DNA from: a virus
Taxonomy: Duplodnaviria > Caudoviricetes
Direction: 5' to 3' (one strand)
IMG/VR virus record: IMGVR_UViG_3300026097_000029
Span: 1-54,968 of that record
Length of the DNA: 54,968 bases
Position numbers and translations under genes: made by a program
The notes under the pieces: generated by a model
Told to the model about the DNA's origin: nothing
Database searches by the model: none
Seen by the model: the letters and a program-made list of their open reading frames with translations, nothing else
Shown: positions 1 to 54,968 of the stretch, one piece after another
Numbering within the stretch: the stretch's first letter is position 1
How the letters are laid out: the number at the start of each line of letters is the position of its first letter

Positions 1-135
1 TTAAAACAAGAAAATGAATATTTACAAAAAGAAATTAATAATTTAAGAAACCCTAACAAAAACGAAAAAACAATAGAAGATATAAAGCAAATGAATTTAC
101 TTTCGTTAATAAAATGGAAGTTAACTAAAAGTTAG
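1..135 (+). CDS. 3' end of a hypothetical protein truncated by the window edge
   Basis: Frame 1 is open from base 1 (LKQENEYLQKEINN...KWKLTKS) to TAG at 133-135. Confidence 0.55.
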   Translation, partial: LKQENEYLQKEINNLRNPNKNEKTIEDIKQMNLLSLIKWKLTKS

Positions 136-197
136 TTTATTTGTGTTATACATTGTTGTGCATAGTAGCGGATTATTAACGAAAAAAAATTAATAGA

Positions 198-680
198 ATG
201 AAAGACAAAAAAGTATTAGATGTGTGTTGTGGACCAAAAGGAATGTGGTTCGATAAACACGATGAAAGGGCATTGTATTTAGACAAGCGTAGAGAAACGC
301 ACATTGATACATATCCTTGCGGAACAAAAACAAATATAATTGACCCTGATATTATAGGTGATTTTACGGATATTAAACAACCTGCCAATTCCTTTTGGCA
401 CGTGGTTTTTGACCCACCACATATTAAGCAAAACAATACAAGCCAAATAACAAAGAAGTACGGAAGTTTACAAGGAGATTGGCGTGAGATGTTAAAACAA
501 GGATTTAAAGAATGTTTTAGAGTGCTAAAGCCAAATGGTACACTAATATTTAAATGGAATGATTGTAGGTTTCCTGTAAAAGAAATACTTGCTTTAACAG
601 ACCAAAAACCACTTTACGGACATAAAAGCGGCAAGAAAATGGGAACGCATTGGATATGTTTTATAAAAGACGAAGCGTAG
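198..680 (+). CDS. SAM-dependent (DNA) methyltransferase-like protein
   Basis: VLDVCCG SAM-binding motif, FDPPH catalytic-type motif, ECFRVLKPNGTLIFKW. Confidence 0.8.
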   Translation: MKDKKVLDVCCGPKGMWFDKHDERALYLDKRRETHIDTYPCGTKTNIIDPDIIGDFTDIKQPANSFWHVVFDPPHIKQNNTSQITKKYGSLQGDWREMLKQGFKECFRVLKPNGTLIFKWNDCRFPVKEILALTDQKPLYGHKSGKKMGTHWICFIKDEA

Positions 681-691
681 CTATTATGCAC

Positions 692-758
692 AACATTTCT
701 GCGATATGAAACGTTGCCTAGTGGGACTGAGTAAATGCAATGTTTTATATTGCGTGTT
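692..758 (+). repeat. attC-like hairpin (AAC...GTT)
   Basis: AAC-atttct-GCGATATGAAACGTTGC...GCAATGTTTTATATTGC-gt-GTT; 17-bp stem with 3 G.T pairs. Confidence 0.85.
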
Positions 759-794
759 GGTTGACGATAGTGAACAGTATTAAAAAAATGAATT

Positions 795-1442
795 ATGTAC
801 AGAAGTAAAATAGAACTCCATAACGTTGATTGTTTGCCGTTTATGAAGCAATGCGTGGATAAACAATTTGACCTAGCAATAGTAGACCCACCTTATGGTA
901 TTGCACGCGCAGGACAAACAGAAACCTTTACAAAAAATCCTAAACATAAGCGCAAAGCACACGATCAAAAAAACTGGGATAATGCAATACCTAGCCAAGA
1001 GTATTTTGATGAGCTAGAACGTATAAGTAAGAATCAAATTGTTTGGGGTGCGAATTATTTTGTTGCCCATTTAAAACACGGAACAATGGGTTGGGTTGTT
1101 TGGGATAAAGGACAACACGGATTAAGTATGAGCGATTGTGAATTGGCTTACAGTAGCTTTAATAGAGCAACACGAATACTGACGTTTAATAGATGTCTAA
1201 TAGCTCAAAAAGGTGGAAGTATACACCCAACCCAAAAGCCTGTAGAGTTATATAGGCACTTACTTAATAAATATGCAGAAAAGGGCAACAAAATATTTGA
1301 TTCGCACTTGGGAAGTGGAAGCATTGCCATTGCTTGTGATGACTTAGGTTTTGATTTAGTAGCTACTGAAATTGATAAAGACTACTTTGAAAAGGCAAAC
1401 AAAAGGATAGACCAACATAGAAGGCAACAAACCCTTTTTTAA
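795..1442 (+). CDS. DNA N6-adenine/N4-cytosine methyltransferase (beta class)
   Basis: IVDPPY, HPTQKPVELY and FDSHLGSGS motifs. Confidence 0.9.
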   Translation: MYRSKIELHNVDCLPFMKQCVDKQFDLAIVDPPYGIARAGQTETFTKNPKHKRKAHDQKNWDNAIPSQEYFDELERISKNQIVWGANYFVAHLKHGTMGWVVWDKGQHGLSMSDCELAYSSFNRATRILTFNRCLIAQKGGSIHPTQKPVELYRHLLNKYAEKGNKIFDSHLGSGSIAIACDDLGFDLVATEIDKDYFEKANKRIDQHRRQQTLF

Positions 1443-1500
1443 TATTGCAACCAACACCGAATAACAGAACCTTACAAATTAAATTTAACAAACTTAAGCA

Positions 1501-1807: not shown

Positions 1808-4800
1808 TTATCTGTTTAAAAAATCTCTAGCATACTCGTAGTTATAATTAAAATCTCCTGTCTTAAATCCTTGAATTAACTCGTTGTATTTGCTTATAGT
1901 TTGTTTGTTTAAAACTTTAGCTCTCATTAATTGATTTAAGATTTCTTTATTGCTTTTATCTTTAAAATCTCCACCAAATATATTATACAACATAAACGCT
2001 CGTTCATTAGCATTCATGTTTTTAAGCTTGTAAACAACAAAAGGATATTGTTTTTTCTCTAGCTGTTTTTCAAGTTTACTAATCATTTTTTTTGTTTCTT
2101 CCGCATTGTCTCCTGCTTGTAATATTATTTCATCTACAATATCTTTAGGCATAGCATCGTTCTTAGCAAACTCGTCTATTAACTTATTATAGTTAAAATC
2201 TTTTATAGCTTTTTGTTGTGCCATTTTAGCTAACTCTTGCTTTTGGTCTGATGTTAGGTTTACTGAAGATGAATACTTGCTAGTTTTTGAAAAAACTCTA
2301 CCTGTAAACATTTTTTTAATATTATCTGCCATTTCTTTCTTTTCTCTACCTTCTTCTCCGCCCATTAACGCATCAGCAGTTCCGTAAGTTAAAGATATAT
2401 AAGGATTGCTTCTAGGAGATGTTACTATAGCTTCTACCGCTGCTTTAATTCTAGCGGGAGATTCTGTTGTCTGCCAACCTATCTCTTTGTAAAAACCTTC
2501 TACATAATCGCTTTCAAAACCCTCAGCTTCTTTAGGAACATACCCTTGCATATAAGACAAAGGCTGGTCTCTATAAAAGTCATAACCTAAAGAGTAAGAC
2601 ATAATAGAGTTTATGGCTGGTACTCTAGTTAAATTACCTGTTAGTGTTAAATCAAAAGGCAATACATTTGTCTCCATTGTAAACTTTAATTCTTCTAGAG
2701 TCTTGTCTTGGTATCCTTCTATCTCATACATTTCAGCCATTTTGTTAGCTATTATATTTTCAGTCAACGAAAGTAATGGTGTTATCTCGTGTGATTTTGC
2801 TAATCTAAACGACTCAAACTCTCCTTCTTTACTTATATTGTAATAAAAGTGCATATAGTTAGAGTTTTGATACTTACTTTGCTTTTGTCTAGCTTTTAAG
2901 TATCGCTCAACACCCGTTAATCCTTTATACTCTTCAGGTAAATCATCATCATCTAAAGCACCTAGTAAAAACACATTCAAACCTATACGAAGACCAGAGA
3001 AAATAGCCGCTGCTTGAATTAATCTAAATGATGTAGCTAAAGGTCTTTCTTTTGCTTGCTCTGCTGCTACTCTAATACTTTGTGTTCCTGCGTTTAGATA
3101 GGATACTGCTGCGTCAATGTCTTTTAATATATAGCCACTTTGGTTAAAGTCTGGTGCAGATTTAGCTCTAGCTTCTGCAACCGCTTTTGTAAACATAGAC
3201 TCTCTTAGACCTTTGTCTAATTTCTCTAAATCTTTTATTTCATTTATATCCTTATATTTCTTAGGATTTTCTTTTTTTAGTTTTTTAATTTCGTTGTTTA
3301 ATGTTCTTGTAAACACTCCTAATCTAAAACCTATCTCGCCATATTCTTGCAAATCTCCAATAAAATCAAATATCTTATTTTTAAACACAAAGTCTTTAGC
3401 TCTCTTGGAGTCTGCTAATCCAAATGTAGCAAATTTAAAGAAGTTATCTAATACTTTTTTGTTTAATGATTCTACGAAGGTGTTTCGCTTTACACGACCT
3501 TGTGTATGTAGAAAGTTCATCATCAAACCGTATTCTACTGCGTTTTTGTAGATGTAAGATTGTTCAGTTCCTTTTCTTATTTCTTTAATACCACCAACTA
3601 AATCTTTAGCTATTTGACCCAAAGACTTTAGTAAAAAATTACTGTATTGACTACTAAAAACAGATATAAAAGAAAAATCTCTTGGAGTGTTAGTTATAAA
3701 AAAGGTAGGGTTATTACCTGTAGCAAAACTTTGTAATATAGCTTTGCCAGATATTAAGGCAATAGCTTCTCTCATATTTGGTGTAGATATTATCCCGTTT
3801 AATTGACCTGCATAACTATCATAAAAATCAGGATTCATACTAAAAGACTTTCTTACACCATCTTCATAATAGTACACTTTTCTAAATCCATCAGGAACTT
3901 GTTTTTCTATACTGACTTGCTCAAACAATTTATCTAAAGCTTCTAATTCTCTTAACTCTCTTCTAGTTATAGATTCGCTTCCTTTTTTTTCTTGTAAAGA
4001 TTTTTGTCTTTCTTTAGCATCTAGTAAAGATGTAAAGGTTGCTCTATTTACTCTGTTAGCAGATATAGATTTACTTCGTGCATTAATATACATACTAATA
4101 AGAAGCATACTATCTGTAATTAAAGATTCACTACTACCTTGATTTATAGTTTTTATAGGAGATTCAGCCAACCCGCTATTGTCTGATGCTTTACTATAGT
4201 CAAACTCTCCATCTAGGTTTTCTATATGCTGTAAGAATTTACGTTGTACGTAGTCGTATCCTTTAAAAGAATCGTACATATCTTTATCTATAAAGCCTTC
4301 TTCGTACATTTCTTTTAGCATGTCTTGATAGTAAGAGAAAAACTCTTCTGCTCTGTCGTTTAGTTTGTTAAACTTCTTGTCTCCTAATTCTTTTTTAAGA
4401 TTATCTAACGCAGCTCTAGCATCATCTTTTGTCAAGTTACCAGGATTAATAACGTCTGATTTTCCTTGGGTTTTTCTTTGGGATTCTAAAGAGATTAATC
4501 TTTTAGCTTGTATTATCCAGTCCAATATTTCAACCTCATCATTATTTAGCTTGTAATAAATTTTTCTATAAATGTTTTTGAATATCTCTGCTGCACGACC
4601 TGAAGAGCCATTGTCTGCAATCATGTAATCAACTAAAGATGTATTTTTTACCTTTAGTTTTGCTTTTTTAAATACTGTTTTAGCAAATGAAGTTCTATCT
4701 AGGAATTTTTCTTTAAATCCTTTAACTATGTTTTTCAAAGTAAATCTAGAGCTAGAAAGTTTTTCTCTATCTTTTTTTGCTTTATTCATAACGTTTTGAA

Positions 4801-23839: not shown

Positions 23840-24390
23840 ACTTTAGCACATACATCTCTTGTGTCTATCTTAATAAACTCTTTACCTAAAACATTAAAGT
23901 AATAGTTTCTGTAATCTTCGTAAACTATAGTGTCTCCTTTTTTTAAACCTAATTCGTTTTCTTGCTTATATGAATTAACAGCTACAATGCCTACGTTTTC
24001 GTTTAAGTGTTTATGAGAAAACTCATCATTGTTAGGCACTCGTTCAAGAAATAAATAAGGGTCAATAGAAATCATTTCTCCGTTTTTAATAACCATATAA
24101 GGGTCTTGGGTAAAGTATAAGTCATCAAAAATATGCTTAATACCATTGTTCATTTCCCCCATTTGTGTACGACCTACTCTAAATGTATTGTGGTGTACTA
24201 CAATTAAATCTCCCTTTTCAATTATCCCTTTGTAGTCTTGTGGCGTTTCAACTACTTCTGCAACTCTGTTAGTATGTTCGTGGTTGTCTATATTATCGTT
24301 AACAATAATGTCTAAACCATCAATATCCATAGTCGTTCTATACTTGTCGCCTTTGTGTGGTTTAATTAAAAAGTAAAATGGACTTTTCAT
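23836..24390 (-). CDS. GroES-like protein (probably two tandem domains)
   Basis: FLIKP...AEVVETP...IEKGDLIVVH and FLERV...VGIVAV...LKKGDTIVY patterns. Confidence 0.55.
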   Translation of the reverse strand: MKSPFYFLIKPHKGDKYRTTMDIDGLDIIVNDNIDNHEHTNRVAEVVETPQDYKGIIEKGDLIVVHHNTFRVGRTQMGEMNNGIKHIFDDLYFTQDPYMVIKNGEMISIDPYLFLERVPNNDEFSHKHLNENVGIVAVNSYKQENELGLKKGDTIVYEDYRNYYFNVLGKEFIKIDTRDVCAKV

Positions 24391-36516: not shown

Positions 36517-38100
36517 ATGAGTAACATTAAAGAAGTTCGTTTCGGCTTAGATGCTAGGTCTGAAATTTTAAAAGGAGTAAACACAGTAGCAGATGCTGTA
36601 AGCTCAACTATGGGTGCAAAGGGTAGAAACGTGTTAATTGAAACACAAGGCGGTTTACCTAAAATAACAAAAGACGGAGTTACCGTATCCAAAAATATTT
36701 TTTTAGAAAGCCCATTAGAATCTTTAGGTGCAGAAATTATTAAACAAGCTGCTGAGAAAACCGTAGAAGATTGTGGGGATAGTACAACTACTACTGTTGT
36801 ATTAGCTAGGGAGCTAATGAATTTAGCAGAAGTAGAAGTAGAGAAAGGTGCACACCCTATCTTACTTAAAGAAGGTATAAGTGATGCGGTTAAACAAGTT
36901 ACAAATCATTTAAAAAGCAAAGCATTAAGGCTTAAAAAAAGAGACTACAATAATGTAGCTAGAATATCTGCAAACAACGATAAAGAATTAGGAGACACAA
37001 TAGCTAAAGCATTTAAGTTGGCAGGAAAAAATGGCGTGGTTACTTACGAGCGTTCTATGGACGAAATTACATCTGTAAAGAAAAGCAATGGTTTAAAGAT
37101 TGACAGGGGTTTACTTAATCAGTACATGGTTACTGATGAGAAAACCAACCGAATGGAATTAGAGAATCCTTACATTTTTGTTTGTAATAAAAAAATAGAA
37201 TCATTCCAACAAATTATCCCTTTGTTTAAAAAATCTAAACAAGAAGATAAATGGATTTTGATTATAGGCGAAATGGAGCGAAGTGTAGCTAACCTATTTA
37301 CTGCTAACATTATAAAACACAAACTAAAAGTAAGATTTGTAGATGCTCCGTCTTTTGGGAGTAAACGTAATGCTTTAATGGAAGATATAGCTACTGCCAC
37401 AGGCTCTATCTTAGTAAAGAATGAAGGTACAGACAATATTGAATCTGTGTGTTTAGATTACTTAGGAACTGCAAAAGGATTTACTTGTTCGGACAAAGAA
37501 TCTTTTTTAGATGTAGACAAAGAAAGATATCAAGACGCTATTGATTTAAAAGTTAACGAGTTATTAGAATTAAAAAAGAACACTAAAAAAAGCATAGCAT
37601 CTAAGTTTTTAGATGAGCGTATTGCTAAGTTAAGCTGTTCTATTGCTACCATACAAGTAGGTGCTATATCTGATGTGGAGTTAGAAGAAAAAATAGACAG
37701 AGTAGACGATGCAGTTAACGCAACTCAATCGGCAATAGAAGAAGGTGTTTTAGTTGGTGGTGGTTTAGCGTTGTTTAATGCTAGCTACAAAGTTAGTTAT
37801 AGTAATGATAATCATAAAGATTATAAGTTAGGGTTTATGATAACCATAAACGCAATCAGGAAACCCATAAAGCAAATACTTACAAATGCAGGTGCTAATG
37901 TAGACGATGTTATTTCTGAAATAGAAAACAATCAAGACGAAAACATAGGATACGATGTGCTATCTAACAAAATGGTAAATATGCTTAAAGCAGGTATTAT
38001 TGACCCACATAAAGTAATACGATGTGCATTGCAAAACGCAGCAAGTGTTTCGCAAACATTTTTATTAACAGACACATCAATTAATATAAAAAGAGCGTAA
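36517..38100 (+). CDS. groEL: Chaperonin GroEL (phage-encoded)
   Basis: GVNTVADAVSSTMGAKGRNV, ITKDGVTV, GDSTTT, EEGVLVGGG, GIIDP. Confidence 0.95.
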   Translation: MSNIKEVRFGLDARSEILKGVNTVADAVSSTMGAKGRNVLIETQGGLPKITKDGVTVSKNIFLESPLESLGAEIIKQAAEKTVEDCGDSTTTTVVLARELMNLAEVEVEKGAHPILLKEGISDAVKQVTNHLKSKALRLKKRDYNNVARISANNDKELGDTIAKAFKLAGKNGVVTYERSMDEITSVKKSNGLKIDRGLLNQYMVTDEKTNRMELENPYIFVCNKKIESFQQIIPLFKKSKQEDKWILIIGEMERSVANLFTANIIKHKLKVRFVDAPSFGSKRNALMEDIATATGSILVKNEGTDNIESVCLDYLGTAKGFTCSDKESFLDVDKERYQDAIDLKVNELLELKKNTKKSIASKFLDERIAKLSCSIATIQVGAISDVELEEKIDRVDDAVNATQSAIEEGVLVGGGLALFNASYKVSYSNDNHKDYKLGFMITINAIRKPIKQILTNAGANVDDVISEIENNQDENIGYDVLSNKMVNMLKAGIIDPHKVIRCALQNAASVSQTFLLTDTSINIKRA

Positions 38101-42221: not shown

Positions 42222-43049
42222 TTAAATAGCTATCTCTAATTCTGAATCTAGTTTCTTGCCTTGCTCTAATCCTGTAAAACTAAAGTTAAAGTTTTTATCT
42301 AAGCTCATTGTAGGCTGATTGCCACTTTCTCTATGCATAATCTCTACCGCAGCTTCTATGTGCCTGTCGTATATGTGTAAGTTTTGTACAAAGTGAGAAA
42401 AAAAACCACAAGTATATAATTCTTTACCTACTATTTTGTTTAGATGTAAGCAAACTATCATCATTAAAGCTACGTATTGTGTTTTATTTATATATCCTGC
42501 TGTTATATAATCAGATGAGCGTTGGTTAAGCGTCATATCTAAATAAAGTTTGTCTTTTATCTGTCTAACACTCCACAGGGTTTCGTAAGCACAAGGTTTT
42601 AAACCCTTATCGTCTTCTGAAAAGTCGCTTTCTTGCCATAAGTTTATTATATGTCGCCTGCTAAATGGTTCTTTCATAAGATTAACTATTAGCTTGTTAA
42701 ATAGGTTATACTTCTTGACTGTATAACCATAACGCTTACCAATAGTACCGTTTCCTATATCCCAATTTCCCCACCAATTTATACCTAAATCTTTAGCGTC
42801 TTTTAAAGAGTTGCTTTGGTGTAGGTAAATCCACATAATTTCTTTGATACCTGTTTTAATTGCTGTGTTTCTTAGTGTGGTAATAGGGTATTCTCCATTG
42901 CTTATATCGTATTTTTCAAACACTTGTGTTATAAACAACGAGTGTGCTTCTTTACCATCCTTATACTTTGGTCTAGGGTTTAAATCTTCCGTACCATTGT
43001 TTAGTATGTTAGCTAGGTTGTCTTTAAAGTATTGGTCTGCTTTTATCAT
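42222..43049 (-). CDS. thyA: Thymidylate synthase
   Basis: SRRHIINLW, LKPC, QRSSD, N, NLHIYDRH motifs. Confidence 0.9.
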   Translation of the reverse strand: MIKADQYFKDNLANILNNGTEDLNPRPKYKDGKEAHSLFITQVFEKYDISNGEYPITTLRNTAIKTGIKEIMWIYLHQSNSLKDAKDLGINWWGNWDIGNGTIGKRYGYTVKKYNLFNKLIVNLMKEPFSRRHIINLWQESDFSEDDKGLKPCAYETLWSVRQIKDKLYLDMTLNQRSSDYITAGYINKTQYVALMMIVCLHLNKIVGKELYTCGFFSHFVQNLHIYDRHIEAAVEIMHRESGNQPTMSLDKNFNFSFTGLEQGKKLDSELEIAI

Positions 43050-44218: not shown

Positions 44219-45076
44219 ATGGTAAACGAAAGCCTAGATGAACTATCTTCTTCCCAATACGCATTCAGAAGTGATATATGTATATACAGAGATTTTTATG
44301 ATGATGATGATTTAAGAAAAGCAATAAAAGTTTTTTATCCTATACGTGGAGTAGAGCAAGAAGTAGCTTTAAAGTTTAGTGAAGGAGTGCATACTATAAA
44401 TTGTTTTCCATACAATTACAATTCTATACCTAAAAAAAGCACAGTATTAATGCGTCTAGAACAAATATCTTTAAATCTAGGTTTCTTAAATAAACATTAC
44501 GACACTCAACAACTAACTACTTACATTGAGATTATAATAAAAAACAAATATCACAGATATAACTACTCGTTCGATTTAAAGCAGTTTGAAGACATTATAA
44601 ATGAAGGTAAAGATAAAGAGTTAGAAGAAATGAATACAGACATTAGAAAGTATATTTGGAATAAAAAACACATGAATTTAAACAAGAGTATTAAGTCTAG
44701 GATAATGATAAGAGATAGGTTTAAAAATGATATAATGAGCAACACAAGTAAAGTGTTTGATGCAGTAAATAACTTACTAGAAACAGATGAGTTTATACAC
44801 AATAAAATTATATCAGAAATGACTAAGATGCCTATGACAACACTAGAGAAGTATGTAATGGTACATAAAGACGAAATAAACAACCATAACAAGTCTAAGT
44901 ATGGCACAGATAACTACAACAAGTATATAAATGCAGTAACCATTAAAGACATTAAAGACGCTGTTACTATGATAGAGTTTGCTAACAAGAAAATAAACAT
45001 ATCTAGCGTAGCTAAGAAATCTAGACTACACAGGAACACAGTTTCTAGATTAAATAAACTATATAACCTATTTTAA
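44219..45076 (+). CDS. Hypothetical DNA-binding protein (C-terminal HTH)
   Basis: INISSVAKKSRLHRNTVSRL HTH; preceded by TATCTTTG (44196-44203). Confidence 0.55.
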   Translation: MVNESLDELSSSQYAFRSDICIYRDFYDDDDLRKAIKVFYPIRGVEQEVALKFSEGVHTINCFPYNYNSIPKKSTVLMRLEQISLNLGFLNKHYDTQQLTTYIEIIIKNKYHRYNYSFDLKQFEDIINEGKDKELEEMNTDIRKYIWNKKHMNLNKSIKSRIMIRDRFKNDIMSNTSKVFDAVNNLLETDEFIHNKIISEMTKMPMTTLEKYVMVHKDEINNHNKSKYGTDNYNKYINAVTIKDIKDAVTMIEFANKKINISSVAKKSRLHRNTVSRLNKLYNLF

Positions 45077-46080
45077 TTAAATGCAACATGGTCTACTAGC
45101 ACACTATTATAGTATACAATGTGCTAGGGTAGCTTAGTGCATTTTTTGTTTTATTTGTTTATACATACCTTTTCTTTGTAAATAATCTTGTATTGAATAA
45201 ACATACACTTCTTAGTCTTATAAGTGGGATAGTTTTTAGTCAAATGAGTGGTATTTTTTAGTCTCTTGAGTGGGCTATACCCCCAACCTACGTTATCCAC
45301 ATCTTTCCCAAAACTTTTCTCATTCGCATAGGGGGGTGCAATTCTGAGCACATAGTGTCGAAACTTTTTAGCTTTTTTGTCCTGGACTTTTTTCAATCAA
45401 CAGAACCAATATAAAACTAATACGATTGTACTCCTGTATATTTTACGTTGATGCTAAATGTTTTTTTAGGTGAGACTAAATATTTTTTTAGTGGGGAATA
45501 AATAACCAAAAAAAAATCTTTACATAAAACCACAAACGAAATTCAGCGTCAATTTTTAACTATTGTATTAAATATGTAAGTATATATATATATTATTTAT
45601 ACGTATTTAATGTATGTATGTATTAAGGATTTAACTGTTTTAATATATATATGCTAAATAGGTTAAATATGTATGTATTTGATTTTTAGTGTATTAATAC
45701 AATTTAGATTAATTAATTTGTTAAAACTTTGTTAAATAAGATAGGTTTATTTGGTTGTAATTTGAGTTTGTTTGTATGTTTGCAATGTAAACAAAAACGA
45801 AAATACTTCACTTGTTTATGAGTTCCTTGAAATACTTACTAGATTAATTAATAGATTACATTTATAATAGTGTTGCATTATATTGCTTCCGTATTTATAC
45901 GAACAAACATTTATAAAATACTTTGATTAGTTAGTTTAGTAACTCGAAAATAAAACTAATTAAAACTATGCTTTTATATTTAAAGTAGCTGAGAACGTTT
46001 GAAAGCTAAAAAATATACAAATAGCTGAGTATGTTTCGCGATATACTCAGTATCTAAATATTATTAACCTTAAATAAAAT
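45077..46080. other. AT-rich non-coding region (possible origin or genome end, with early promoter)
   Basis: No credible long ORF; hairpins at ~45094-45131 and ~46024-46049; TATGTTTG at 45775-45782. Confidence 0.45.
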
Positions 46081-49203: not shown

Positions 49204-49455
49204 ATGAACACAGAAAAAAGAATCGGAAACATAATATACGTACAACAAACAAATACCATCGAAGTAGTTGTTGATGAAGGCGTATATAATCAACGTACTA
49301 GAGAGAAGTGGTACAAGACAAATGAAGATAATTTTATCTTAAAACCGCATCAATTAGTTTTCTTAAATAGCATAGAAACAGTAAATACTATGCATAAAAT
49401 GGGTGCTAAAATGAGCGATAATACAAGAATATTAGTTGATAAGCTAAATAAATAA
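49204..49455 (+). CDS. Hypothetical protein
   Basis: 83-aa ORF with A-rich leader. Confidence 0.55.
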   Translation: MNTEKRIGNIIYVQQTNTIEVVVDEGVYNQRTREKWYKTNEDNFILKPHQLVFLNSIETVNTMHKMGAKMSDNTRILVDKLNK

Positions 49456-49633
49456 CTTTAATAAAGAACGAGTAGTGTGGCATAACAGCAAATAATATGG
49501 GTAGTGGCGATAAAAAGGGTTAACAGTATCGTATGCAAACCAATAACCCCGAAAAACACGGTGAAAGTCCAGTTGTTAGGCATACTTAGCCATTACCTAT
49601 ATTTATTATTGAATGTCTTTTTTAATTGCATAT

Positions 49634-49756
49634 AACGTTGAGTATATGGCAAGTAGCCGAGATAAAGCACAAACGATGCAAAAAGTAAACAAATTTAATA
49701 ACAGGCAGATGGTTCCAAAAAGACCCGTAACACGGCTATTTGCTATATACAGTGTT
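49634..49756 (+). repeat. attC-like hairpin
   Basis: GTATATGGCAAGTAGCCG (49642-49659) / CGGCTATTTGCTATATAC (49733-49750). Confidence 0.85.
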
Positions 49757-49773
49757 ATGTGGCGTTTTTAATT

Positions 49774-50016
49774 ATGGAAGTAGTAGATTTTAGTAACAGA
49801 TTATTTCACGATATACCAACACAGGACAATCCTGCTTACGGGAGTGAAGAGTGTATAATGATTGTAAAGGATAGCCAAAGACAAGCTTTATTTGCTGTAC
49901 TACATATTGAACCCGTAATAGACCCAATGGAAGACGAATCTGTTACTAAAATATGTGAGGTGTATAAACTTAATAATGCTATTAAGATTGCTAAGTGGTT
50001 CGCAAATGCCACATAA
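49774..50016 (+). CDS. Cassette-borne hypothetical protein
   Basis: ATG 49774; the TAA stop lies inside the terminal TAAC. Confidence 0.65.
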   Translation: MEVVDFSNRLFHDIPTQDNPAYGSEECIMIVKDSQRQALFAVLHIEPVIDPMEDESVTKICEVYKLNNAIKIAKWFANAT

Positions 50017-50061
50017 CATCTCGGTGCTATGAAATCGTTTTAATGTTTTATAGCACGTGTT
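50015..50061 (+). repeat. Minimal attC-like hairpin
   Basis: GTGCTATGAAA-TCGTTTTAATG-TTTTATAGCAC. Confidence 0.85.
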
Positions 50062-50163
50062 ACCCACTGGTGCGACTTTAAAGAGCAAACTTTTATTTAA
50101 GAACTGAAACTTTTTCTTTTCTTTTTTGAGCGTTGGCAAATATTAATTTGAAAAATTAAAATT

Positions 50164-50970
50164 ATGGAACAAATACAATTACACAAAGGATATTGCGAAG
50201 ATTACTTTACCCAAATACACGATAAAAGCGTAGATATGGTTCTTTGTGATTTACCTTACGGAACAACAGATTGTAAATGGGATAGTCAAATAGACTTGAC
50301 TTTTCTATTTAGCGAATATTACAGAGTGTTAAAAAAGAACGGTGCAATAGTGTTATTCGCTTCACAGCCCTTTACATCTACTTTGGTATGTGAACACGTT
50401 AAATACTTCAAGCACGAGTGGATATGGAAGAAAAACGCAGGAAGTAATTTTGGAACTGTAAAATACCAACCATTTAAAGAACACGAAAGCATACTTGTAT
50501 TTAGTAATGGAGGTGGGAAGGTTTGTTACAATCCTATAATGGAAGAACGTGCTGAAAGTGGTAAAGCGAGAGTAAAGACCAAGGTTAATTATAATACAAG
50601 TGCAGAAGTTTACGGAAGTGGTGGATTAATAGGCGATAAAGGAATAAGTAGTAATAGACCTGATTTAAGATACCCAAGTAGTGTACAGAAATTTAATAGA
50701 GAGCGAGGGTTACACCCAACACAAAAACCACTTGACTTGATAGAGTACTTAATTAAAACTTACTCTAACGAAGGCGAATTGATACTTGATAATACAATGG
50801 GAAGCGGTACTACTGGTGTTGGTTGTGTAAATACAAATAGACGATTTATAGGTATTGAGTTAGAAGATAAGTATTTTTCTATTGCAGAAGAACGAGTAAA
50901 AAAAGCGTGGGAAGAAAAAAGAAAAGAAAAAGATTTACAAGCACAAACTTTATTTGGAACACAGAAGTAA
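50164..50970 (+). CDS. DNA N6-adenine/N4-cytosine methyltransferase (beta class)
   Basis: CDLPYG, HPTQKPLDL, LDNTMGSGTTG. Confidence 0.9.
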   Translation: MEQIQLHKGYCEDYFTQIHDKSVDMVLCDLPYGTTDCKWDSQIDLTFLFSEYYRVLKKNGAIVLFASQPFTSTLVCEHVKYFKHEWIWKKNAGSNFGTVKYQPFKEHESILVFSNGGGKVCYNPIMEERAESGKARVKTKVNYNTSAEVYGSGGLIGDKGISSNRPDLRYPSSVQKFNRERGLHPTQKPLDLIEYLIKTYSNEGELILDNTMGSGTTGVGCVNTNRRFIGIELEDKYFSIAEERVKKAWEEKRKEKDLQAQTLFGTQK

Positions 50971-50982
50971 GCACTTGTTGGT

Positions 50983-51216
50983 AACACTATGGTTATATGA
51001 GTAGTTTATTTACGGATTTAAAAATAGAAATATGAAAACAGTTTTAATACATTATAAAAAATGGGTAGAAGCACCGCACCCAATGTTAGACGGTGAATTT
51101 ATTAAATGTAGCCAAGTGGTCGAAGTATTAAAGCTGACTGACCTAAATGATATGTTTAAAAATATAACTAAGATTGAAATACTAAGCGAGTAAATGAATT
51201 ACTTATATGACGTGTT
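50983..51216 (+). repeat. attC-like hairpin with an ORF in its loop
   Basis: 22-bp arms 50992-51013 / 51190-51211 with four G.T pairs. Confidence 0.85.
51032..51193 (+). CDS. 53-aa hypothetical protein inside a hairpin loop
   Basis: Read manually: MKTVLIHYKKWVEAPHP...KIEILSE; stop falls in the right arm. Confidence 0.6.
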   Translation: MKTVLIHYKKWVEAPHPMLDGEFIKCSQVVEVLKLTDLNDMFKNITKIEILSE

Positions 51217-51253
51217 GTGTGTAGTACGGGCAAATAAGCAAAAACTTTGAATT

Positions 51254-51802
51254 ATGAAATTAGATTTAATTACAAACAAAGCAGAAAAAACAACTGCACG
51301 AAATGAAAATGATGAGTTCTATACTCCAAATTATGCAATAGAGCCTTTGTTAAAATATTTAAAACCTAATAGTTATGTATGGTGTCCTTTTGATTTGGCG
51401 AAAAGTAACTTTGTAAAACTATTAGTTGCAAATGGGCATAAGGTTTTAAATACGCACATCGAAAACGGTTTTGACTTTTTTGAATATGAGCCACCAAGTG
51501 AAATTGATTACATAATAAGTAATCCGCCTTACTCACTAAAACATGAAGTATTTAGCAAACTGTTTGAATTAGGAAAACCATTTGCAATGCTTGTAGGTGT
51601 TGTTGGATTGTTTGAAAGCCAAAAAAGATTTACAATGTTTGCGGACAATGATTTTGAAATAATGTATTTTGATAAGCGAGTAAGTTACTTTAAGGATTAC
51701 GCAGACGTAAAGCCAAAACTTAACCCACCGTTTTCGAGTGTATTTTTAACAAAGGATATACTACCTAAACAAGTTGTTTTTGAAAGGATAACTAAAAAGT
51801 AG
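51254..51802 (+). CDS. Phage adenine methyltransferase-like protein
   Basis: DEFYTP, WCPFD, DFF, ISNPPYS motifs. Confidence 0.8.
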   Translation: MKLDLITNKAEKTTARNENDEFYTPNYAIEPLLKYLKPNSYVWCPFDLAKSNFVKLLVANGHKVLNTHIENGFDFFEYEPPSEIDYIISNPPYSLKHEVFSKLFELGKPFAMLVGVVGLFESQKRFTMFADNDFEIMYFDKRVSYFKDYADVKPKLNPPFSSVFLTKDILPKQVVFERITKK

Positions 51803-51812
51803 TATTACTCAC

Positions 51813-51898
51813 AACGGTAGGTATATGGTTAGTGCGCCTACCACAAACGATTGAATTAAGCACTAACATAACTTGGCGCATTAACTATATACATTGTT
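51813..51898 (+). repeat. attC-like hairpin
   Basis: GTATATGGTTAGTGCGCC / GGCGCATTAACTATATAC. Confidence 0.85.
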
Positions 51899-51920
51899 GT
51901 GTGCCGTTAATTTTAAGGAT

Positions 51921-52184
51921 ATGTTGAATATAGAAGCGGAAGGTTTTGTATTTAAGTATGAAGAAAAAGGCAATCATAACAAAGCCTACACAAAGCCGTA
52001 CACAAATCACTCAAGAGGGTATTCGGATAGAATGATTGATGTTATTTATAATGACAAAAACAATTGGGTATTAATTTGCCAAGGAGATGATGAAACCCCT
52101 TGGGGTGATTGGGAAACAATGTTTGCTGGACAAATACAAAACCAACAAGATTTTAAAAAAGTGCTTGAAATGGTCATCGTTTAA
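51921..52184 (+). CDS. Cassette-borne hypothetical protein
   Basis: ATG 51921; stop within the terminal repeat TTAATGGCACACAAC. Confidence 0.65.
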   Translation: MLNIEAEGFVFKYEEKGNHNKAYTKPYTNHSRGYSDRMIDVIYNDKNNWVLICQGDDETPWGDWETMFAGQIQNQQDFKKVLEMVIV

Positions 52185-52192
52185 TGGCACAC

Positions 52193-52315
52193 AACGGCTC
52201 AGTATAAAAAATCGTAGCGGATAGATACCGCTTAAATGTCAAATTATAAATAACTTAATAAAATGGAACAAACATCGAATAACAGAAACCCCCGCTATGT
52301 TTTTTATACATTGTT
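52193..52315 (+). repeat. attC-like hairpin
   Basis: GTATAAAAAATCGTAGCGG / CCGCTATGTTTTTTATAC. Confidence 0.85.
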
Positions 52316-52463
52316 GGCGGTAGTGCTTTTAATTACTGCCTGTTCGGGTGATAGCGAAAGTAGCTCACAATTTTCTGAATGGCTTAAACAACCGATAACA
52401 GAAATGAGCATATTTGAATTGATATTGGTTGTAGGTTTTGTTGGACTGCTTACACGGTCTTAG
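52263..52463 (+). CDS. Small putative lipoprotein reading through the site
   Basis: Hydrophobic stretch ending in lipobox-like ITAC; C-terminal TM helix. Confidence 0.55.
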   Translation: MEQTSNNRNPRYVFYTLLAVVLLITACSGDSESSSQFSEWLKQPITEMSIFELILVVGFVGLLTRS

Positions 52464-52473
52464 CATTACCGCC

Positions 52474-52586
52474 AACGTAATTGTATATGGTGCGTTGCAT
52501 CACAAAATTTAATTAATAAAAATAAAGATAATGGAAGTAGAAGAACGATATAAAAAACCACAAGGCAATGCACTATATACATTGTT
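52474..52586 (+). repeat. attC-like hairpin
   Basis: GTATATGGTGCGTTGC / GCAATGCACTATATAC. Confidence 0.85.
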
Positions 52587-52740
52587 AGCAGCAGTTAAAC
52601 TTGCTTATGGGCAATACAAACTTGATGTGGACTACGTAAAAAATAAAAGTAATATATGGGAAGGGAAGCCATATAGTTGGGGATTAACTCATTGGGCAAT
52701 AGCAAAACATAGGTTCTATTGGTTTGTCATTAAACGCTAA
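52531..52740 (+). CDS. Small hypothetical protein reading through the site
   Basis: Starts in the hairpin loop; ALYTLLAAV is encoded by the arm and GTT junction. Confidence 0.55.
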   Translation: MEVEERYKKPQGNALYTLLAAVKLAYGQYKLDVDYVKNKSNIWEGKPYSWGLTHWAIAKHRFYWFVIKR

Positions 52741-52748
52741 TTGCTGCT

Positions 52749-52805
52749 AACGGACGAGTATATGCGAAGTGCTGACGATAGGAAGCATTGCGTATATACA
52801 TTGTT
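52749..52805 (+). repeat. attC-like hairpin
   Basis: GTATATGCGAAGTGCT / AGCATTGCGTATATAC. Confidence 0.85.
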
Positions 52806-52841
52806 AGGTGCAGTACGGTATTAATATAACAAAACTAAAAT

Positions 52842-53606
52842 ATGAAACAAACAGAATTATTCTTATTTGACAAAGTAGTGAACATTGACGGAGATGTAGC
52901 GAAATTCAAAAACCGAGAGATAAAAGCAAAAGAAATCTTTACTATACGTGAGATTGACAAGAAAATAGCTTACGCATTTATTAAACAATACCACTACTTA
53001 AAAGATGCTAAGTTCTTTGCAAAATATTCTTATGGACTTTATATTGATAATGTACTAGTTGGCTGCTCTACTTTTAGCAACCCACAAGGTATAAGTGCAA
53101 TGAAAAGTTGGTTTGGATTACCTAATAGCGACCAAAGTGTATTAGAACTTAGCAGACTGTGTATGTTACCTAAACTTAATGGTACAAACGCAACAAGCTA
53201 TTTACTTGGCAATAGTATGAAGATGCTAAAACAAAAGGAAGTTAAGGCTGTAATTACATTAGCTGATGATAGTAGGCACGTTGGAAGTATTTACCAAGTT
53301 TGCAATTTTAAATACTATGGCTTAACTGATAAAAAAACTGATTTCTTTTGTGCTGATGGTAGAGTGAACCCAAGAGGCAAAACAAAGGATTTAGAAGGTG
53401 TTTGGCTACCAAGAACACAAAAGCATAGATACGCTTTTTTATTGGATAAGAAAATGAATGTTTTGCTGAGTGAGAGTGAACGACCTACACTTGAAGATAC
53501 AAGCGAATATGATTGCTGTAACGGAACTAATAAGGTTTTTGATAAGCGATTTAATAAGCACTACACTTGCCCAAAATGCACAGGTGTAATTGAAGAACTA
53601 ATGTAG
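52842..53606 (+). CDS. Mom-like (GNAT-fold) DNA modification protein
   Basis: QYHY, LELSRL, LADDSRHVGSIYQVCNFKYYG, KHRY. Confidence 0.75.
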   Translation: MKQTELFLFDKVVNIDGDVAKFKNREIKAKEIFTIREIDKKIAYAFIKQYHYLKDAKFFAKYSYGLYIDNVLVGCSTFSNPQGISAMKSWFGLPNSDQSVLELSRLCMLPKLNGTNATSYLLGNSMKMLKQKEVKAVITLADDSRHVGSIYQVCNFKYYGLTDKKTDFFCADGRVNPRGKTKDLEGVWLPRTQKHRYAFLLDKKMNVLLSESERPTLEDTSEYDCCNGTNKVFDKRFNKHYTCPKCTGVIEELM

Positions 53607-53616
53607 TATTGCACCT

Positions 53617-53806
53617 AACTGGTCGGTGATAACGCTAGTTGCGATGGATTAATAAACTAAAAATAAAAAAAATGGATATAGATAAAATAGTAGATAGCAA
53701 AGTGATAACAATGACTAATTTAAGCGGTAAAAAATCAAAAGTGCTATTTCTTAAAAACGAAACTGAAATAGAAGCATTTAAAGAGCAATTAGCGTTATTA
53801 CGTGTT
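53617..53806 (+). repeat. attC-like hairpin
   Basis: GTGATAACGCTAGTTGC / GCAATTAGCGTTATTAC. Confidence 0.85.
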
Positions 53807-53917
53807 AGTTGCCAAAGGGAACAGTTAAAGGCGTTCGGTGAAATTATAGCACAAAAAATGCATAATGGAGAAGAATTCAATTTAACAAAAGAAGTAGAAA
53901 ACTTTATTAGCCTTTAA
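53672..53917 (+). CDS. Hypothetical protein reading through the site
   Basis: ATG 53672 in the loop; QLALLRVSC is encoded by the arm and junction. Confidence 0.55.
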   Translation: MDIDKIVDSKVITMTNLSGKKSKVLFLKNETEIEAFKEQLALLRVSCQREQLKAFGEIIAQKMHNGEEFNLTKEVENFISL

Positions 53918-53925
53918 TTGCAACT

Positions 53926-54829
53926 AACGTATTGGTATATGGTTAGTGCCGTGTAAATAGCACAGACTTTTAAATTAATAAAAGAAGTAATAATTAAAAT
54001 ATTTTTTATGAGCGTGGGCAAAAAATATAAAGTAGTTGAAGTAACTTTAAATGATATAGAAGAATGGCTATTGTATAAGCACTATGCCAAAAGAAAATGC
54101 AATGTAATGTTTGCTTATGCTTTAGTTGATAATAATGAAATTATTGGTGTTTGTACTTTAGGTATGCCACCTACTCCATTTTTTAGTAAATTGTTTGATA
54201 AAGGGACTTACTTAGAATTAAACAGACTAATAACAAATGATGGTCTACCTAAAAATACACTTTCTTTTTTTGTCGCAAATATTTTAAATAAGATAGGTGA
54301 TTATGTGGTTGTTTCTTATTCTGACCCAAATAACGGACATAATGGATATATTTATCAAGCTACTAATTGGATTTATACTGGTGCAGGTAGGGTAAACCAA
54401 AAAGACAAAAGAGGTGTAAATAAGTTTTTTTACAATGGTAAAGAATACCACGAAAGGCATATACCAGAAACAATGTCAAGATTAGGATTTAATATAGATA
54501 ATGATAAAACAAAAAACGAAAATTGGATAAATAACGGTGGTGAGATAGTACCACAAAAAAGAAAACATAGGTATTTTTATATTTGCGGTAATAAAAGGTT
54601 TGTAAAAAAGAACAAGAAAATAATAGAAAATTATTTTGACATTTACAATTACCCAAAAGAAGAGAATACAAACTATGATGCAAGTTATATTGTAAAAAAC
54701 AAATATATAAAACCTAAATTGTTTTGATAAAAACAAAAGAGCGTGGGCAAAAAAATATTTTAATTATGGACAAACAGACACAAATTATTGAATTAAGCAC
54801 GGACTTAGGCATTAACTATATGCCGTGTT
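53926..54829 (+). repeat. attC-like hairpin split by a nested gene insertion
   Basis: GGTATATGGTTAGTGCC (53934-53950) / GGCATTAACTATATGCC (54808-54824). Confidence 0.8.
54008..54727 (+). CDS. Mom-like (GNAT-fold) DNA modification protein
   Basis: KHYAKR, LELNRL, SYSDPNNGHNGYIYQATNWIYTG, KHRY. Confidence 0.8.
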   Translation: MSVGKKYKVVEVTLNDIEEWLLYKHYAKRKCNVMFAYALVDNNEIIGVCTLGMPPTPFFSKLFDKGTYLELNRLITNDGLPKNTLSFFVANILNKIGDYVVVSYSDPNNGHNGYIYQATNWIYTGAGRVNQKDKRGVNKFFYNGKEYHERHIPETMSRLGFNIDNDKTKNENWINNGGEIVPQKRKHRYFYICGNKRFVKKNKKIIENYFDIYNYPKEENTNYDASYIVKNKYIKPKLF

Positions 54830-54888
54830 GTAGCATCGTTTTAATGTGCTACAACACCGAATAACAAAACATTAAAAACATTAACCCT

Positions 54889-54968
54889 ATGAAACTACTT
54901 GAAAACGTTGCGGAAAGATATATTGAAAGTTCTAATAAAGGAGCAATAAATTATACAGATGAGCTTAA
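54889..54968 (+). CDS. 5' end of a hypothetical protein truncated by the window edge
   Basis: ATG 54889 after A-rich leader; open to the end of the window. Confidence 0.45.
   Translation, partial: MKLLENVAERYIESSNKGAINYTDEL

What the first reader, a model, noticed from the sequence alone, without database searches (positions are those of the whole stretch)
50015..54855. Both segment classes can be empty or carry genes and share the same minimal loop
Seen: the AAC...GTT hairpins are not only spacers. One encloses a complete 53-aa ORF (51032-51193) and another encloses the Mom-like gene. Conversely, one GTT...AAC cassette is empty: GTTGTAGCA-TCGTTTTAATG-TGCTACAAC (54827-54855). Its 11-nt loop is identical to the loop of the shortest hairpin (50035-50045). 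Inference: the system is a symmetric two-module architecture in which either module can capture cargo, and TCGTTTTAATG may be the unfilled ground state. This bears on how cassettes are created.
Basis: partly seen in the sequence, partly recalled or inferred. Interest (0 to 1): 0.72.

Follow-up and report, generated by a model that had tools for sequence, protein, structure and literature searches.

The report
Integron-like gene cassette array in phage

Summary
TCGTTTTAATG occurs exactly twice in the window (0.08 expected). One copy caps the shortest AAC...GTT hairpin (50015-50061) and the other caps an empty GTT...AAC unit (54827-54855). Hairpins 50983-51216 and 53926-54829 enclose a conserved 53-aa ORF and a Mom-family gene.

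The region is an unbroken chain of 17 alternating units, with at least 4 more at the window start. The same architecture occurs in other viral contigs, in Polaribacter phages P12002L and P12002S, and in Bacteroidota chromosomes. In the chromosomes the arrays sit beside a Xer-like tyrosine recombinase.

I read the hairpins as attC-like folded single-strand recombination sites. The GTT...AAC repeats are the outer part of the same stem. Two such sites in P12002L were already published as a "CALIN", and one was recombined by IntI1.

The architecture is not symmetric. Hairpins have a fixed polarity, and in phages ORFs cross the GTT boundary (31 of 55) but rarely the AAC boundary (6 of 53). CGTTTTAATG is the family's default terminal loop (17 distinct hairpins with covarying stems).

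New here are the extent of the arrays, cargo inside hairpin loops, inverted coding polarity in phages, and the non-IntI recombinase. No recombinase lies in the window, and cassette movement is inferred, not shown.

The parts
49634..49756 (+). hairpin A (AAC...GTT, 123 nt), first unit of the array
   Evidence: fold z -3.93
49754..50017 (+). cassette 1; own 14-nt terminal inverted repeat; ORF 49774-50016 (80 aa, no family)
50015..50061 (+). minimal hairpin B; loop TCGTTTTAATG at 50035-50045
50059..50985 (+). cassette 2; N6_N4 DNA methyltransferase 50164-50970 with a promoter-like site at 50133-50162
   Evidence: shared as a discrete block with L037, L038 and L009
50983..51216 (+). hairpin D (234 nt); encloses the conserved 53-aa ORF 51032-51193
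51214..51815 (+). cassette 3; EcoRI-methylase-like ORF 51254-51802 (Pfam hit just under cut-off)
51813..51898 (+). hairpin E (86 nt); 18-bp stem with G.T pairs and an open 35-nt loop
   Evidence: z -5.09
51896..52195 (+). cassette 4 (15-nt repeat); ORF 51921-52184; TCGTTTAATG lies just before the right repeat
52193..52315 (+). hairpin F (123 nt); ORF 52263-52463 starts in its loop
52313..52476 (+). cassette 5 (164 nt, 15-nt repeat); holds the rest of ORF 52263-52463 (lipoprotein-like signal)
52474..52586 (+). hairpin G (113 nt); ORF 52531-52740 starts in its loop
52584..52751 (+). cassette 6 (168 nt, 14-nt repeat)
52749..52805 (+). hairpin H (57 nt); 91-97% identical copies occur in L001, L009, L017 and L021, and related copies in L218 and phage P12002L, with unrelated flanks
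52803..53619 (+). cassette 7; Mom-family gene 52842-53606
53617..53806 (+). hairpin I (190 nt); ORF 53672-53917 starts in its loop
53804..53928 (+). cassette 8 (125 nt, 11-nt repeat)
53926..54829 (+). hairpin J (904 nt); arms and distal loop are related to hairpin E; encloses the second Mom-family gene 54008-54727, itself flanked by an 18-nt perfect inverted repeat
   Evidence: (D13, I9)
54827..54855 (+). empty cassette 9: 9-bp stem from GTT to AAC, closed by TCGTTTTAATG
   Evidence: homologue in L029
54853..54968 (+). AAC followed by an ORF that starts at 54890 and runs off the window end
   Evidence: continuity with position 1 is not established (record linear, about 88% complete)
1..157 (+). 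end of an ORF, then a hairpin right arm ending in GTT at 155-157
155..694 (+). cassette 10 (15-nt repeat); methyltransferase-like ORF 198-680 (weak Pfam hits)
692..758 (+). hairpin L (67 nt); three G.T pairs, all with G on the 5' arm
   Evidence: z -3.70
756..1455 (+). cassette 11; N6_N4 methyltransferase 795-1442; last unit of the array

Best explanation
The stretch is an integron-type gene-cassette array without its own integrase (a 'CALIN'). It is built on a hairpin family specific to Bacteroidota and their phages.

Each AAC...GTT hairpin is an attC-like site. One DNA strand folds into a basal AAC/GTT stem, an asymmetric unpaired spacer, a stem of about 18 bp and a variable terminal loop. 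The GTT...AAC inverted repeat around each gene is the outward continuation of that same stem. In an excised circular cassette the two halves would meet and lengthen the hairpin. In the array they are separated by the cargo.

The unit that moves is hairpin plus the following segment, bounded by AAC on the folding strand. That is the position where integron integrases cut.

Such a cassette has two ends to its stem. Either end can be closed by cargo or by the family's default loop (T)CGTTTTAATG, which is why the same 11-mer caps both a minimal hairpin and an empty cassette.

The recombinase is not encoded in the window. The likeliest agent is a host Xer-like tyrosine recombinase of the kind that sits next to same-family arrays in Flavobacteriaceae chromosomes.

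Shown: the anatomy, its recurrence, covariation, strand asymmetry, exchange of modules between genomes, and recombinase adjacency in bacteria.

Inferred: single-strand folding in vivo, the cut site, the enzyme, and any capture of cargo.
For: 1. Anatomy. There are 17 gap-free alternating units and 4 more at the window start.

2. Recurrence in viruses. The same chains occur in 9 further viral loci, scores 56-206, against at most 36.5 in 10 control loci. These include the isolates P12002L and P12002S.

3. Covariation. The 5 nt next to GTT/AAC are hypervariable (35 distinct in 60 viral cassettes). They pair across the cassette in 46 of 60 cases, against a mean of 3.8 and a maximum of 10 in 1000 partner shuffles. 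The first base after GTT is a purine in 59 of 60.

4. Strand asymmetry under strand-symmetric scoring. Viral stems hold 142 G.T and 18 T.G pairs against 10 A.C and 5 C.A. Bacterial stems hold 79 and 7 against 4 and 3. Only one strand folds well.

5. Bacterial arrays. They form arrays of 450-1575-nt cassettes, one with 39 consecutive units. There the ORFs lie on the strand opposite the folding strand in 28 of 29 cassettes. That excludes an mRNA role there and matches the integron bottom strand.

6. Recombinase adjacency. A tyrosine recombinase lies within the locus in 7 of 61 family loci, 0 of 59 non-family loci and 0 of 119 viral loci plus the window. It abuts the array at the predicted end in L157 and L250.

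7. Exchange between genomes. The cassette-2 methyltransferase is shared with L037 and L038 only between about 50048-50067 and 50977-50985. P12002L and P12002S are 99.6% identical outside the arrays but differ by whole modules. In contigs from 4 other studies I read 10 of about 19 divergence points within 2 nt of an AAC/GTT boundary (table 8, my reading).

8. ORF boundaries. In viruses ORFs cross GTT in 31 of 55 boundaries and AAC in 6 of 53.

9. Literature. PMC9892861 (passages and section 3.4 read) reports a CALIN with two attC sites around methyltransferase genes in P12002L, one of which IntI1 recombined with the correct junction. PMC5027507 (passages read) states that AAC is the only conserved stretch, that the cut lies between A and C on the bottom strand, that attC sites have a spacer, extrahelical bases and a variable terminal structure, and that the bottom strand is more stable and G-rich.
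Against: - No tyrosine recombinase is found in the window. The record is rated about 88% complete, so one could be missing.
- The recombinase beside the bacterial arrays is not an integron integrase by the curated test. It scores 209.5 and 181.9 bits against a cut-off of 265, and about 60 central model positions are unmatched.
- The full GTTRRRY consensus is met by 1 of 11 window cassettes (my reading of the lists).
- No clear extrahelical bases appear in the folds.
- In phages the genes lie on the folding strand (27 of 29) and often read through the hairpin's right arm. This is the reverse of integrons and would also suit an RNA role.
- One recent difference between P12002L and P12002S has its breakpoint inside two hairpin arms, 9-14 nt past AAC, in a 5-nt microhomology. 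That looks like homology-driven exchange.
- I could not verify that the published P12002L attC sites are these hairpins, because the paper's supplements are closed.
- No excision junction or circle was observed. One search used contigs only.
Confidence: 0.58

Rival explanations
1. Regulatory hairpins that double as homology linkers, like the PeSL motifs of T4-type phages. The hairpins would act in the mRNA as insulators, stabilisers or processing sites between early genes. Because they are the only conserved sequence between variable genes, ordinary homologous or microhomology recombination between co-infecting phages would shuffle the genes. No site-specific recombinase would be needed.
For: - In phages the hairpins lie on the sense strand and G.U-compatible pairs dominate.
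- No recombinase is found in the window.
- One P12002L/P12002S breakpoint lies inside hairpin arms, and another difference is flanked by an identical 72-nt hairpin.
- Several divergence points in other metagenomes fall at cargo start codons rather than at AAC/GTT: 51253, 51923, 52839, 54007.
- The PeSL precedent: PMC2839356 and PMC4122927 (search listing only).
Against: - In bacterial arrays the well-folding strand is antisense to the genes in 28 of 29 cassettes. An mRNA function cannot explain the family there.
- AAC and GTT are invariant exactly at unit borders while neighbouring bases are hypervariable.
- A recombinase lies next to bacterial arrays.
- Sigma-70-like promoters (16 against 26.3 +/- 5.4) and intrinsic terminators (2 against 2.5 +/- 1.6) are not enriched.
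- Processing at stems would cut the many ORFs that read through the right arm.
- No Rfam family matches.
Confidence: 0.2
2. Short hairpins capped by TCGTTTTAATG are blanks, and genes are inserted into the loop of either hairpin class. Every gene therefore ends up flanked by the two arms of a pre-existing stem.
For: - The same stems occur with different contents in both classes.
- The same cargo occurs in different frames.
- The Mom gene inside hairpin J is itself flanked by an 18-nt perfect inverted repeat, a third nested level (I9).
- The loop is conserved across 17 hairpins.
- A loop remnant abuts cargo at window 52177-52186 and L118 8726-8734. A P12002L/P12002S alignment ends at L118 8734, right after that remnant; the true breakpoint is probably nearer AAC at about 8708.
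Against: - No mechanism or enzyme is known for insertion into a loop.
- Most filled units show no trace of the loop at either side of the cargo.
- The polarity and the ORF-crossing asymmetry show that the two classes are not equivalent.
- In sedentary integrons unrelated cargo in near-identical attC frames is normal (PMC5027507), so 'same frame, different cargo' does not require loop capture.
Confidence: 0.12
3. Double-stranded Xer-type sites in alternating orientation, as in the dif modules of Acinetobacter plasmids. There two module classes (C and D) alternate and both carry genes. A host XerC/D-like enzyme would exchange modules between duplex sites.
For: - Orientation alternates strictly, and both classes carry genes.
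- The recombinase next to bacterial arrays is Xer-like and lacks the integron-specific insert. Its best family is NF040815, at 242.6 bits against a cut-off of 220.
- The dif-module precedent with C and D modules: PMC13141974 and PMC6449649 (search listing only).
Against: - The strong one-strand asymmetry of wobble pairs and the covariation of long stems with variable spacing make sense only for a folded single strand.
- I did not find a compact 11-6-11 dif-like core. This was by eye only and was not tested formally.
Confidence: 0.08

Closest known systems
Integron attC sites and CALINs (clusters of attC sites lacking an integrase), including the CALIN reported in Polaribacter phage P12002L (PMC9892861)
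   Same: - AAC and GTT triplets sit at the hairpin base, with a purine after GTT.
- The hairpin has a basal stem, an unpaired spacer, an inner stem and a variable terminal loop, commonly 44-127 nt in all.
- One strand folds better than the other.
- Each cassette's ends are complementary.
- Arrays carry accessory genes in one direction, with methyltransferase cargo in the phage.
- P12002L carries the same hairpin family, including two minimal hairpins with the exact TCGTTTTAATG loop around a methyltransferase.
   Different: - Complementarity runs 5-20 nt beyond AAC/GTT, so the triplets lie mid-stem.
- The full RYYYAAC/GTTRRRY consensus is mostly absent.
- No evident extrahelical bases.
- Hairpin 'loops' reach 850 nt and hold whole genes.
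- Phage genes lie on the folding strand and often start inside the hairpin.
- The published work called only 2 sites in P12002L, whereas I count about 16 units in its first array and more in a second.
Sedentary chromosomal integrons (recalled example: the Vibrio superintegron)
   Same: - Long arrays have closely related attC sites and unrelated cargo.
- ORF-less cassettes occur.
- A tyrosine recombinase sits at one end.
   Different: - The Bacteroidota recombinase fails the integron-integrase model and lacks its central insert.
- It carries a 110-aa N-terminal extension and points the same way as the cassettes in L157 and L250.
- IntegronFinder 2.0 reported only one complete integron in Bacteroidetes, in Salinibacter (passage read).
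PeSL promoter/stem-loop cassettes of T4-type phages (PMC2839356, PMC4122927)
   Same: Conserved intergenic hairpin motifs flank small variable genes in a plastic phage region, and genes are shuffled between relatives.
   Different: - No promoter or terminator signature here.
- AAC/GTT borders are invariant.
- Gene-flanking repeats covary.
- The same family occurs in bacterial arrays on the antisense strand.
dif (pdif) modules of Acinetobacter plasmids (PMC13141974, PMC6449649)
   Same: Two alternating module classes are bounded by inverted recombination sites, and both classes carry genes. A Xer-type enzyme is implicated.
   Different: Those sites are compact duplex sites (28 bp is recalled, not from a call). 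Here the sites are long, strand-asymmetric hairpins.

Membership tests
integron attC site | Conserved 5'-AAC...GTT-3' triplets forming the base (R box) of an imperfect hairpin | tested here: met
   All 17 chained units, and the 4 read by hand, share AAC/GTT at their borders. The same holds in 9 viral and 6 or more bacterial arrays.
integron attC site | Extended consensus RYYYAAC / GTTRRRY | tested here: not met
   A purine follows GTT in 59 of 60 viral and 30 of 30 bacterial cassettes. The full GTTRRRY is met by only 1 of 11 window cassettes (my reading of the lists).
integron attC site | Unpaired central spacer, extrahelical bases and variable terminal structure | tested here: inconclusive
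   Most of the 8 folds show a 4-nt 5'-side internal loop between the basal and main stems, and open terminal loops of 10-70 nt. No clear single-base bulges were seen.
integron attC site | One strand (the bottom strand) is more stable and G-rich than the other | tested here: met
   G.T plus T.G against A.C plus C.A is 160 against 15 in viral stems and 86 against 7 in bacterial stems, under strand-symmetric scoring.
integron attC site | The site lies 3' of the cassette ORF, and the ORF is on the strand opposite the folding strand | tested here: not met
   In viral arrays 27 of 29 cassettes of 250 nt or more have the ORF on the folding strand. In bacterial arrays 28 of 29 have it on the opposite strand.
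integron attC site | Recombined by an integron integrase between A and C of AAC | not testable with these tools
   PMC9892861 reports that IntI1 recombined P12002L_attC2 with the correct junction. I could not confirm that this site is one of these hairpins, because the supplements are closed.
complete integron | An IntI-type integrase (with the integron-specific insert) adjacent to the array | tested here: not met
   The window has no tyrosine recombinase. Neighbours of the bacterial arrays score 209.5 and 181.9 bits on TIGR02249 (cut-off 265), with model positions of about 180-240 unmatched.
PeSL (T4-type promoter-early stem-loop) | A sigma-70 early promoter joined to a terminator-like stem-loop | tested here: not met
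   Promoter-like sites number 16 against 26.3 +/- 5.4 in shuffles. Terminator-like sites number 2 against 2.5 +/- 1.6. The scan does not cover Bacteroidota-type promoters.
dif/pdif module | A compact XerC arm - spacer - XerD arm duplex site at each border | not tested
   No formal search was made. The alternating orientation is shared, but the strand asymmetry argues for folded single strands.

The most novel reading that the evidence does not exclude
Bacteroidota and their virulent phages share an unrecognised integron-like system run by a Xer-type recombinase that lacks the integron-specific insert.

Its cassettes fold into a long stem with two ends. Cargo can sit at either end, including inside what integron biology calls the terminal loop of attC.

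Phages use the system in inverted coding polarity to trade anti-restriction genes.

Units capped at one or both ends by CGTTTTAATG would then be cassette blanks, a visible starting point for how cassettes are born.
Probability: 0.3. Interest if true: 0.9.

Novelty: new variant of a known kind. Interest (0 to 1): 0.72.

Why it matters
How integron cassettes originate, and whether integron-like gene capture exists outside the IntI lineage, are open questions.

This family offers, in one data set:
- blanks, half-filled and filled units;
- a candidate non-IntI recombinase;
- cultured phage-host pairs (P12002L and P12002S on Polaribacter) in which excision and capture can be tested.

It also shows that standard attC models see only a small part of such arrays: 2 sites were called in P12002L. 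CALIN counts in phages and Bacteroidota may therefore be underestimates.

For phage biology, it explains how DNA-modification genes (4-5 methyltransferases and 2 Mom-family genes here) are swapped between unrelated Flavobacteriia phages.

Tried and rejected
- Rfam: no match at gathering scores for the whole window. Only two chance-level hits at E up to 5 in 49400-54968.
- Sigma-70 promoter and intrinsic terminator scans: no enrichment.
- N4-type hairpin-promoter idea: the 1927-aa protein (1808-7591, minus strand) has no relative among solved structures or PHROGs. Dropped.
- Hairpin E as a query against isolate phages: no match.
- The closest isolates by terminase are the Flavobacterium 'elemo' phages at 60% aa identity. 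I fetched 33 kb of one but did not analyse it for arrays. It carries no annotated methyltransferases in that stretch.
- RNA evidence: no RNA holder was listed among public runs. Only contigs could be laid, so nothing can be said about transcripts, circles or rare junctions.
- Circularity of the record: the frame of the ORF at the window end would continue into position 1 if the 4 terminal bases overlapped. But the record is classed as linear and about 88% complete, so I do not rely on it.
- The motif AACACCGAA after the last cassette occurs in array context only in the window (twice) and in L003. The other 18 hits are unrelated. It is not a general array end.
- A resemblance of hairpin arms to dif sites was considered by eye and not pursued.
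- Papers on this architecture in Flavobacteriaceae or Bacteroidota: none found in 4 searches.

Full report
WHAT IS THERE

The window is a single 54,968-nt virus record, classed as linear and about 88% complete. It has podovirus-like structural genes. Its large terminase is 60% identical to that of the Flavobacterium 'elemo' phages and is also related to Cellulophaga phages.

From 49634 to the window end, and again from 1 to 1455, all genes lie on the + strand. They are packed into a strict alternation of two kinds of segment:
- Hairpins begin with AAC and end with GTT.
- Cassettes begin with that same GTT and end with the next AAC. Each has its own 8-15-nt terminal inverted repeat.

A chain finder of my own joins hairpin and cassette candidates only if they share the triplets. 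It recovered 17 consecutive units from 49634 to 54829, score 144. Ten unrelated loci reached at most 36.5.

The cargo comprises:
- two clear N6_N4 methyltransferases;
- an EcoRI-methylase-like ORF;
- a weak methyltransferase-like ORF;
- two Mom-family genes;
- several small ORFs without a family.

THE OBSERVATION

Every element of the finding is in the sequence at the stated coordinates.

The 11-mer TCGTTTTAATG occurs exactly twice in the window, against 0.08 expected. Each copy sits at the apex of a hairpin (folds). One hairpin is of the AAC...GTT kind (50015-50061). The other is the 29-nt GTT...AAC unit (54827-54855).

Hairpin 50983-51216 encloses the 53-aa ORF, and hairpin 53926-54829 encloses the second Mom gene.

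The 53-aa ORF is a real, conserved small protein. It has 15 clusters of 38-67 aa (13 of them 52-55 aa) at 61-94% identity, one of them in a Christiangramia chromosome.

Hairpin 53926-54829 is a relative of hairpin 51813-51898. The arms and the distal 29 nt of the loop match at 83% (D13). The Mom gene is inserted between them, flanked by an 18-nt perfect inverted repeat (I9).

THE FAMILY

A pattern taken from the arms found 36 viral contigs, about 20 of them clearly related. The methyltransferase of cassette 2 brought in more.

Nine of these loci have chains scoring 56-206. Among them are the isolates Polaribacter phage P12002L and P12002S, which are siphoviruses and unrelated in structure to this phage.

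In 122 viral units:
- The five bases next to GTT/AAC are hypervariable (35 different in 60 cassettes).
- They pair across the cassette in 46 of 60 cases. Shuffled partners give a mean of 3.8 and a maximum of 10.
- The hairpin arms carry a conserved sequence.
- The cassette frames carry a second, weaker conserved part that often holds the stop codon.

STRAND ASYMMETRY

I recounted the stems with a scoring that treats G.T and A.C alike. Non-Watson-Crick positions are then overwhelmingly G.T, with G on the 5' arm:
- viral stems: 142 G.T and 18 T.G, against 10 A.C and 5 C.A;
- bacterial stems: 79 and 7, against 4 and 3.

Only one strand can fold well.

THE LINK TO BACTERIA

The same pattern found the hairpin in many Bacteroidota genomes. 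Of these, 61 have the AAC context, mostly Flavobacteriaceae, Saprospiraceae and Chitinophagales.

There the hairpins (44-227 nt) separate cassettes of 450-1575 nt. The cargo is typical of chromosomal integrons: immunity proteins, hydrolases and regulators. One array has 39 consecutive units.

Two results matter most.

First, in bacterial arrays the ORFs lie on the strand opposite the well-folding strand in 28 of 29 cassettes. In viral arrays they lie on that strand in 27 of 29. An mRNA role therefore cannot explain the family. The well-folding strand behaves like the integron 'bottom' strand.

Second, a tyrosine recombinase lies inside 7 of the 61 family loci, 0 of the 59 chance loci and none of the viral loci. 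In L157 and L250 it abuts the array at the end where, on the folding strand, the last cassette ends in AAC.

That enzyme is Xer-like. Its best family is NF040815 (242.6 and 211.8 bits; cut-off 220). It fails the integron-integrase model (209.5 and 181.9 bits; cut-off 265), with the central part of the model unmatched.

WHAT IS ALREADY KNOWN

PMC9892861 (passages and section 3.4 read) reported a CALIN with two predicted attC sites around methyltransferase genes in P12002L. It showed that IntI1 recombines one of them with the correct junction.

I could not see their coordinates because the supplements are closed. However, P12002L has two minimal hairpins with the exact TCGTTTTAATG loop on either side of a methyltransferase gene.

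PMC5027507 (passages read) gives the defining features of attC:
- AAC is the only conserved stretch.
- The cut lies between A and C on the bottom strand.
- There is a spacer, extrahelical bases and a variable terminal structure.
- The bottom strand is more stable and G-rich.

IntegronFinder 2.0 found only one complete integron in Bacteroidetes (passage read). Four searches found no paper on these arrays in Flavobacteriaceae.

HOW IT MOST LIKELY WORKS

I read the hairpins as attC-like sites. The cassette-flanking repeats are the outer part of the same stem, split between the two ends of an integrated cassette.

In viral arrays ORFs run through the GTT border in 31 of 55 cases and through the AAC border in 6 of 53. 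More than half of the hairpins hold a start codon in their loop. The unit is therefore hairpin plus the following segment, bounded by AAC on the folding strand. That is where an integron integrase would cut.

A circular cassette of this kind is one long stem with two ends, and either end can hold cargo.

The loop CG[CT]TTTA[AG]TG is the family's default cap. There are 17 distinct hairpins with it in viral, isolate and bacterial DNA. The stem positions next to the loop show 3-5 pair types each, and 127 of 136 cells pair, against 81 +/- 5 after re-partnering.

A second empty cassette with a compensated stem is in L029.

EVIDENCE OF EXCHANGE

- The methyltransferase of cassette 2 is shared at 85-89% nucleotide identity with L037 and L038, only between the cassette borders. 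In L038 the five-base addresses at both ends are replaced together.
- Hairpin H is 91-97% identical in four viral contigs, with a similar copy in one MAG, with unrelated flanks.
- P12002L and P12002S are 99.6% identical outside the arrays but differ by whole modules.
- Contigs from four other studies hold single modules at 90-99% identity. By my reading of table 8, 10 of about 19 true divergence points lie within 2 nt of an AAC/GTT border and 5 lie at a cargo start codon.

WHAT SPEAKS AGAINST THE MAIN READING

- No recombinase is in the window.
- The bacterial enzyme is not IntI.
- The longer R-box consensus and the extrahelical bases are missing.
- The phage polarity is the reverse of integrons.
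- One recent difference between P12002L and P12002S has its breakpoint inside two hairpin arms in a 5-nt microhomology, as homology-driven exchange would give.
- No excision product was seen.

I therefore keep the PeSL-like homology-linker reading at 0.2, the loop-capture reading at 0.12 and a duplex dif-module reading at 0.08.

VERDICT

The thing is a new variant of a known kind. It is an integron-like array (CALIN) in a virulent-type phage, belonging to a Bacteroidota-wide hairpin family. It has unusual features: mid-stem AAC/GTT, cargo inside hairpin loops, inverted coding polarity, a conserved terminal loop and a non-IntI recombinase in the bacterial counterparts.

Confidence in the main reading is 0.58 and interest is 0.72.

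Noticed in passing
window 45080-46080: A 1-kb non-coding stretch next to ORF 44219-45076 (285 aa, no family) holds several copies of a T-run followed by a G-rich word, and very AT-rich repeats. It looks like an origin or a block of early promoters.
   Followed up: no
window 53990-54030 and 54738-54767; also 50129-50165: The second Mom gene is flanked by an 18-nt perfect inverted repeat and a roughly 20-nt direct repeat, which also encodes its first residues. A related word lies in the promoter-like 5' region of the cassette-2 methyltransferase, and in its homologues in L009, L037, L038 and P12002L.
   Followed up: partly
window 52769-52778; L118 9046-9055 and 9098-9109: A second conserved loop word (GACGATAGGA) caps hairpin H and recurs in P12002L, once in a hairpin and once in a small stem-loop in a methyltransferase 5' region. 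Bacterial 51-nt hairpins instead end in GC-rich mini-stems with GAA-, GTA- or GATA-type loops.
   Followed up: no
arrays in L118, L119, L039, L157, L201, L166, L250: Hairpin lengths cluster at about 44-60, 83-95, 120-127 and 183-188 nt rather than varying smoothly.
   Followed up: no
L250 7616-18177: One Flavobacteriaceae array repeats a 133-nt ORF-less cassette with a roughly 184-nt hairpin 8 times among gene-bearing cassettes.
   Followed up: no
window 54853-54870 and 1453-1470: The same roughly 14-nt word follows the AAC of the empty cassette and the AAC of the last cassette. Both window ends lie in array sequence, so the missing part of the genome (about 12%) may sit inside the array.
   Followed up: partly
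window 52263-52463: The 66-aa ORF that starts in hairpin F has a lipoprotein-type signal, partly encoded by the hairpin's right arm, and a C-terminal hydrophobic segment.
   Followed up: no
window 23836-24390, 36517-38100, 42222-43049: The phage encodes GroES-like and GroEL-like chaperonins and a thymidylate synthase.
   Followed up: no
table 8: Several contigs from other metagenomes diverge from the window within 3 nt of a cargo start codon (51253, 51923, 52839, 54007). Coding sequences appear to be swapped separately from their 5' leaders.
   Followed up: no
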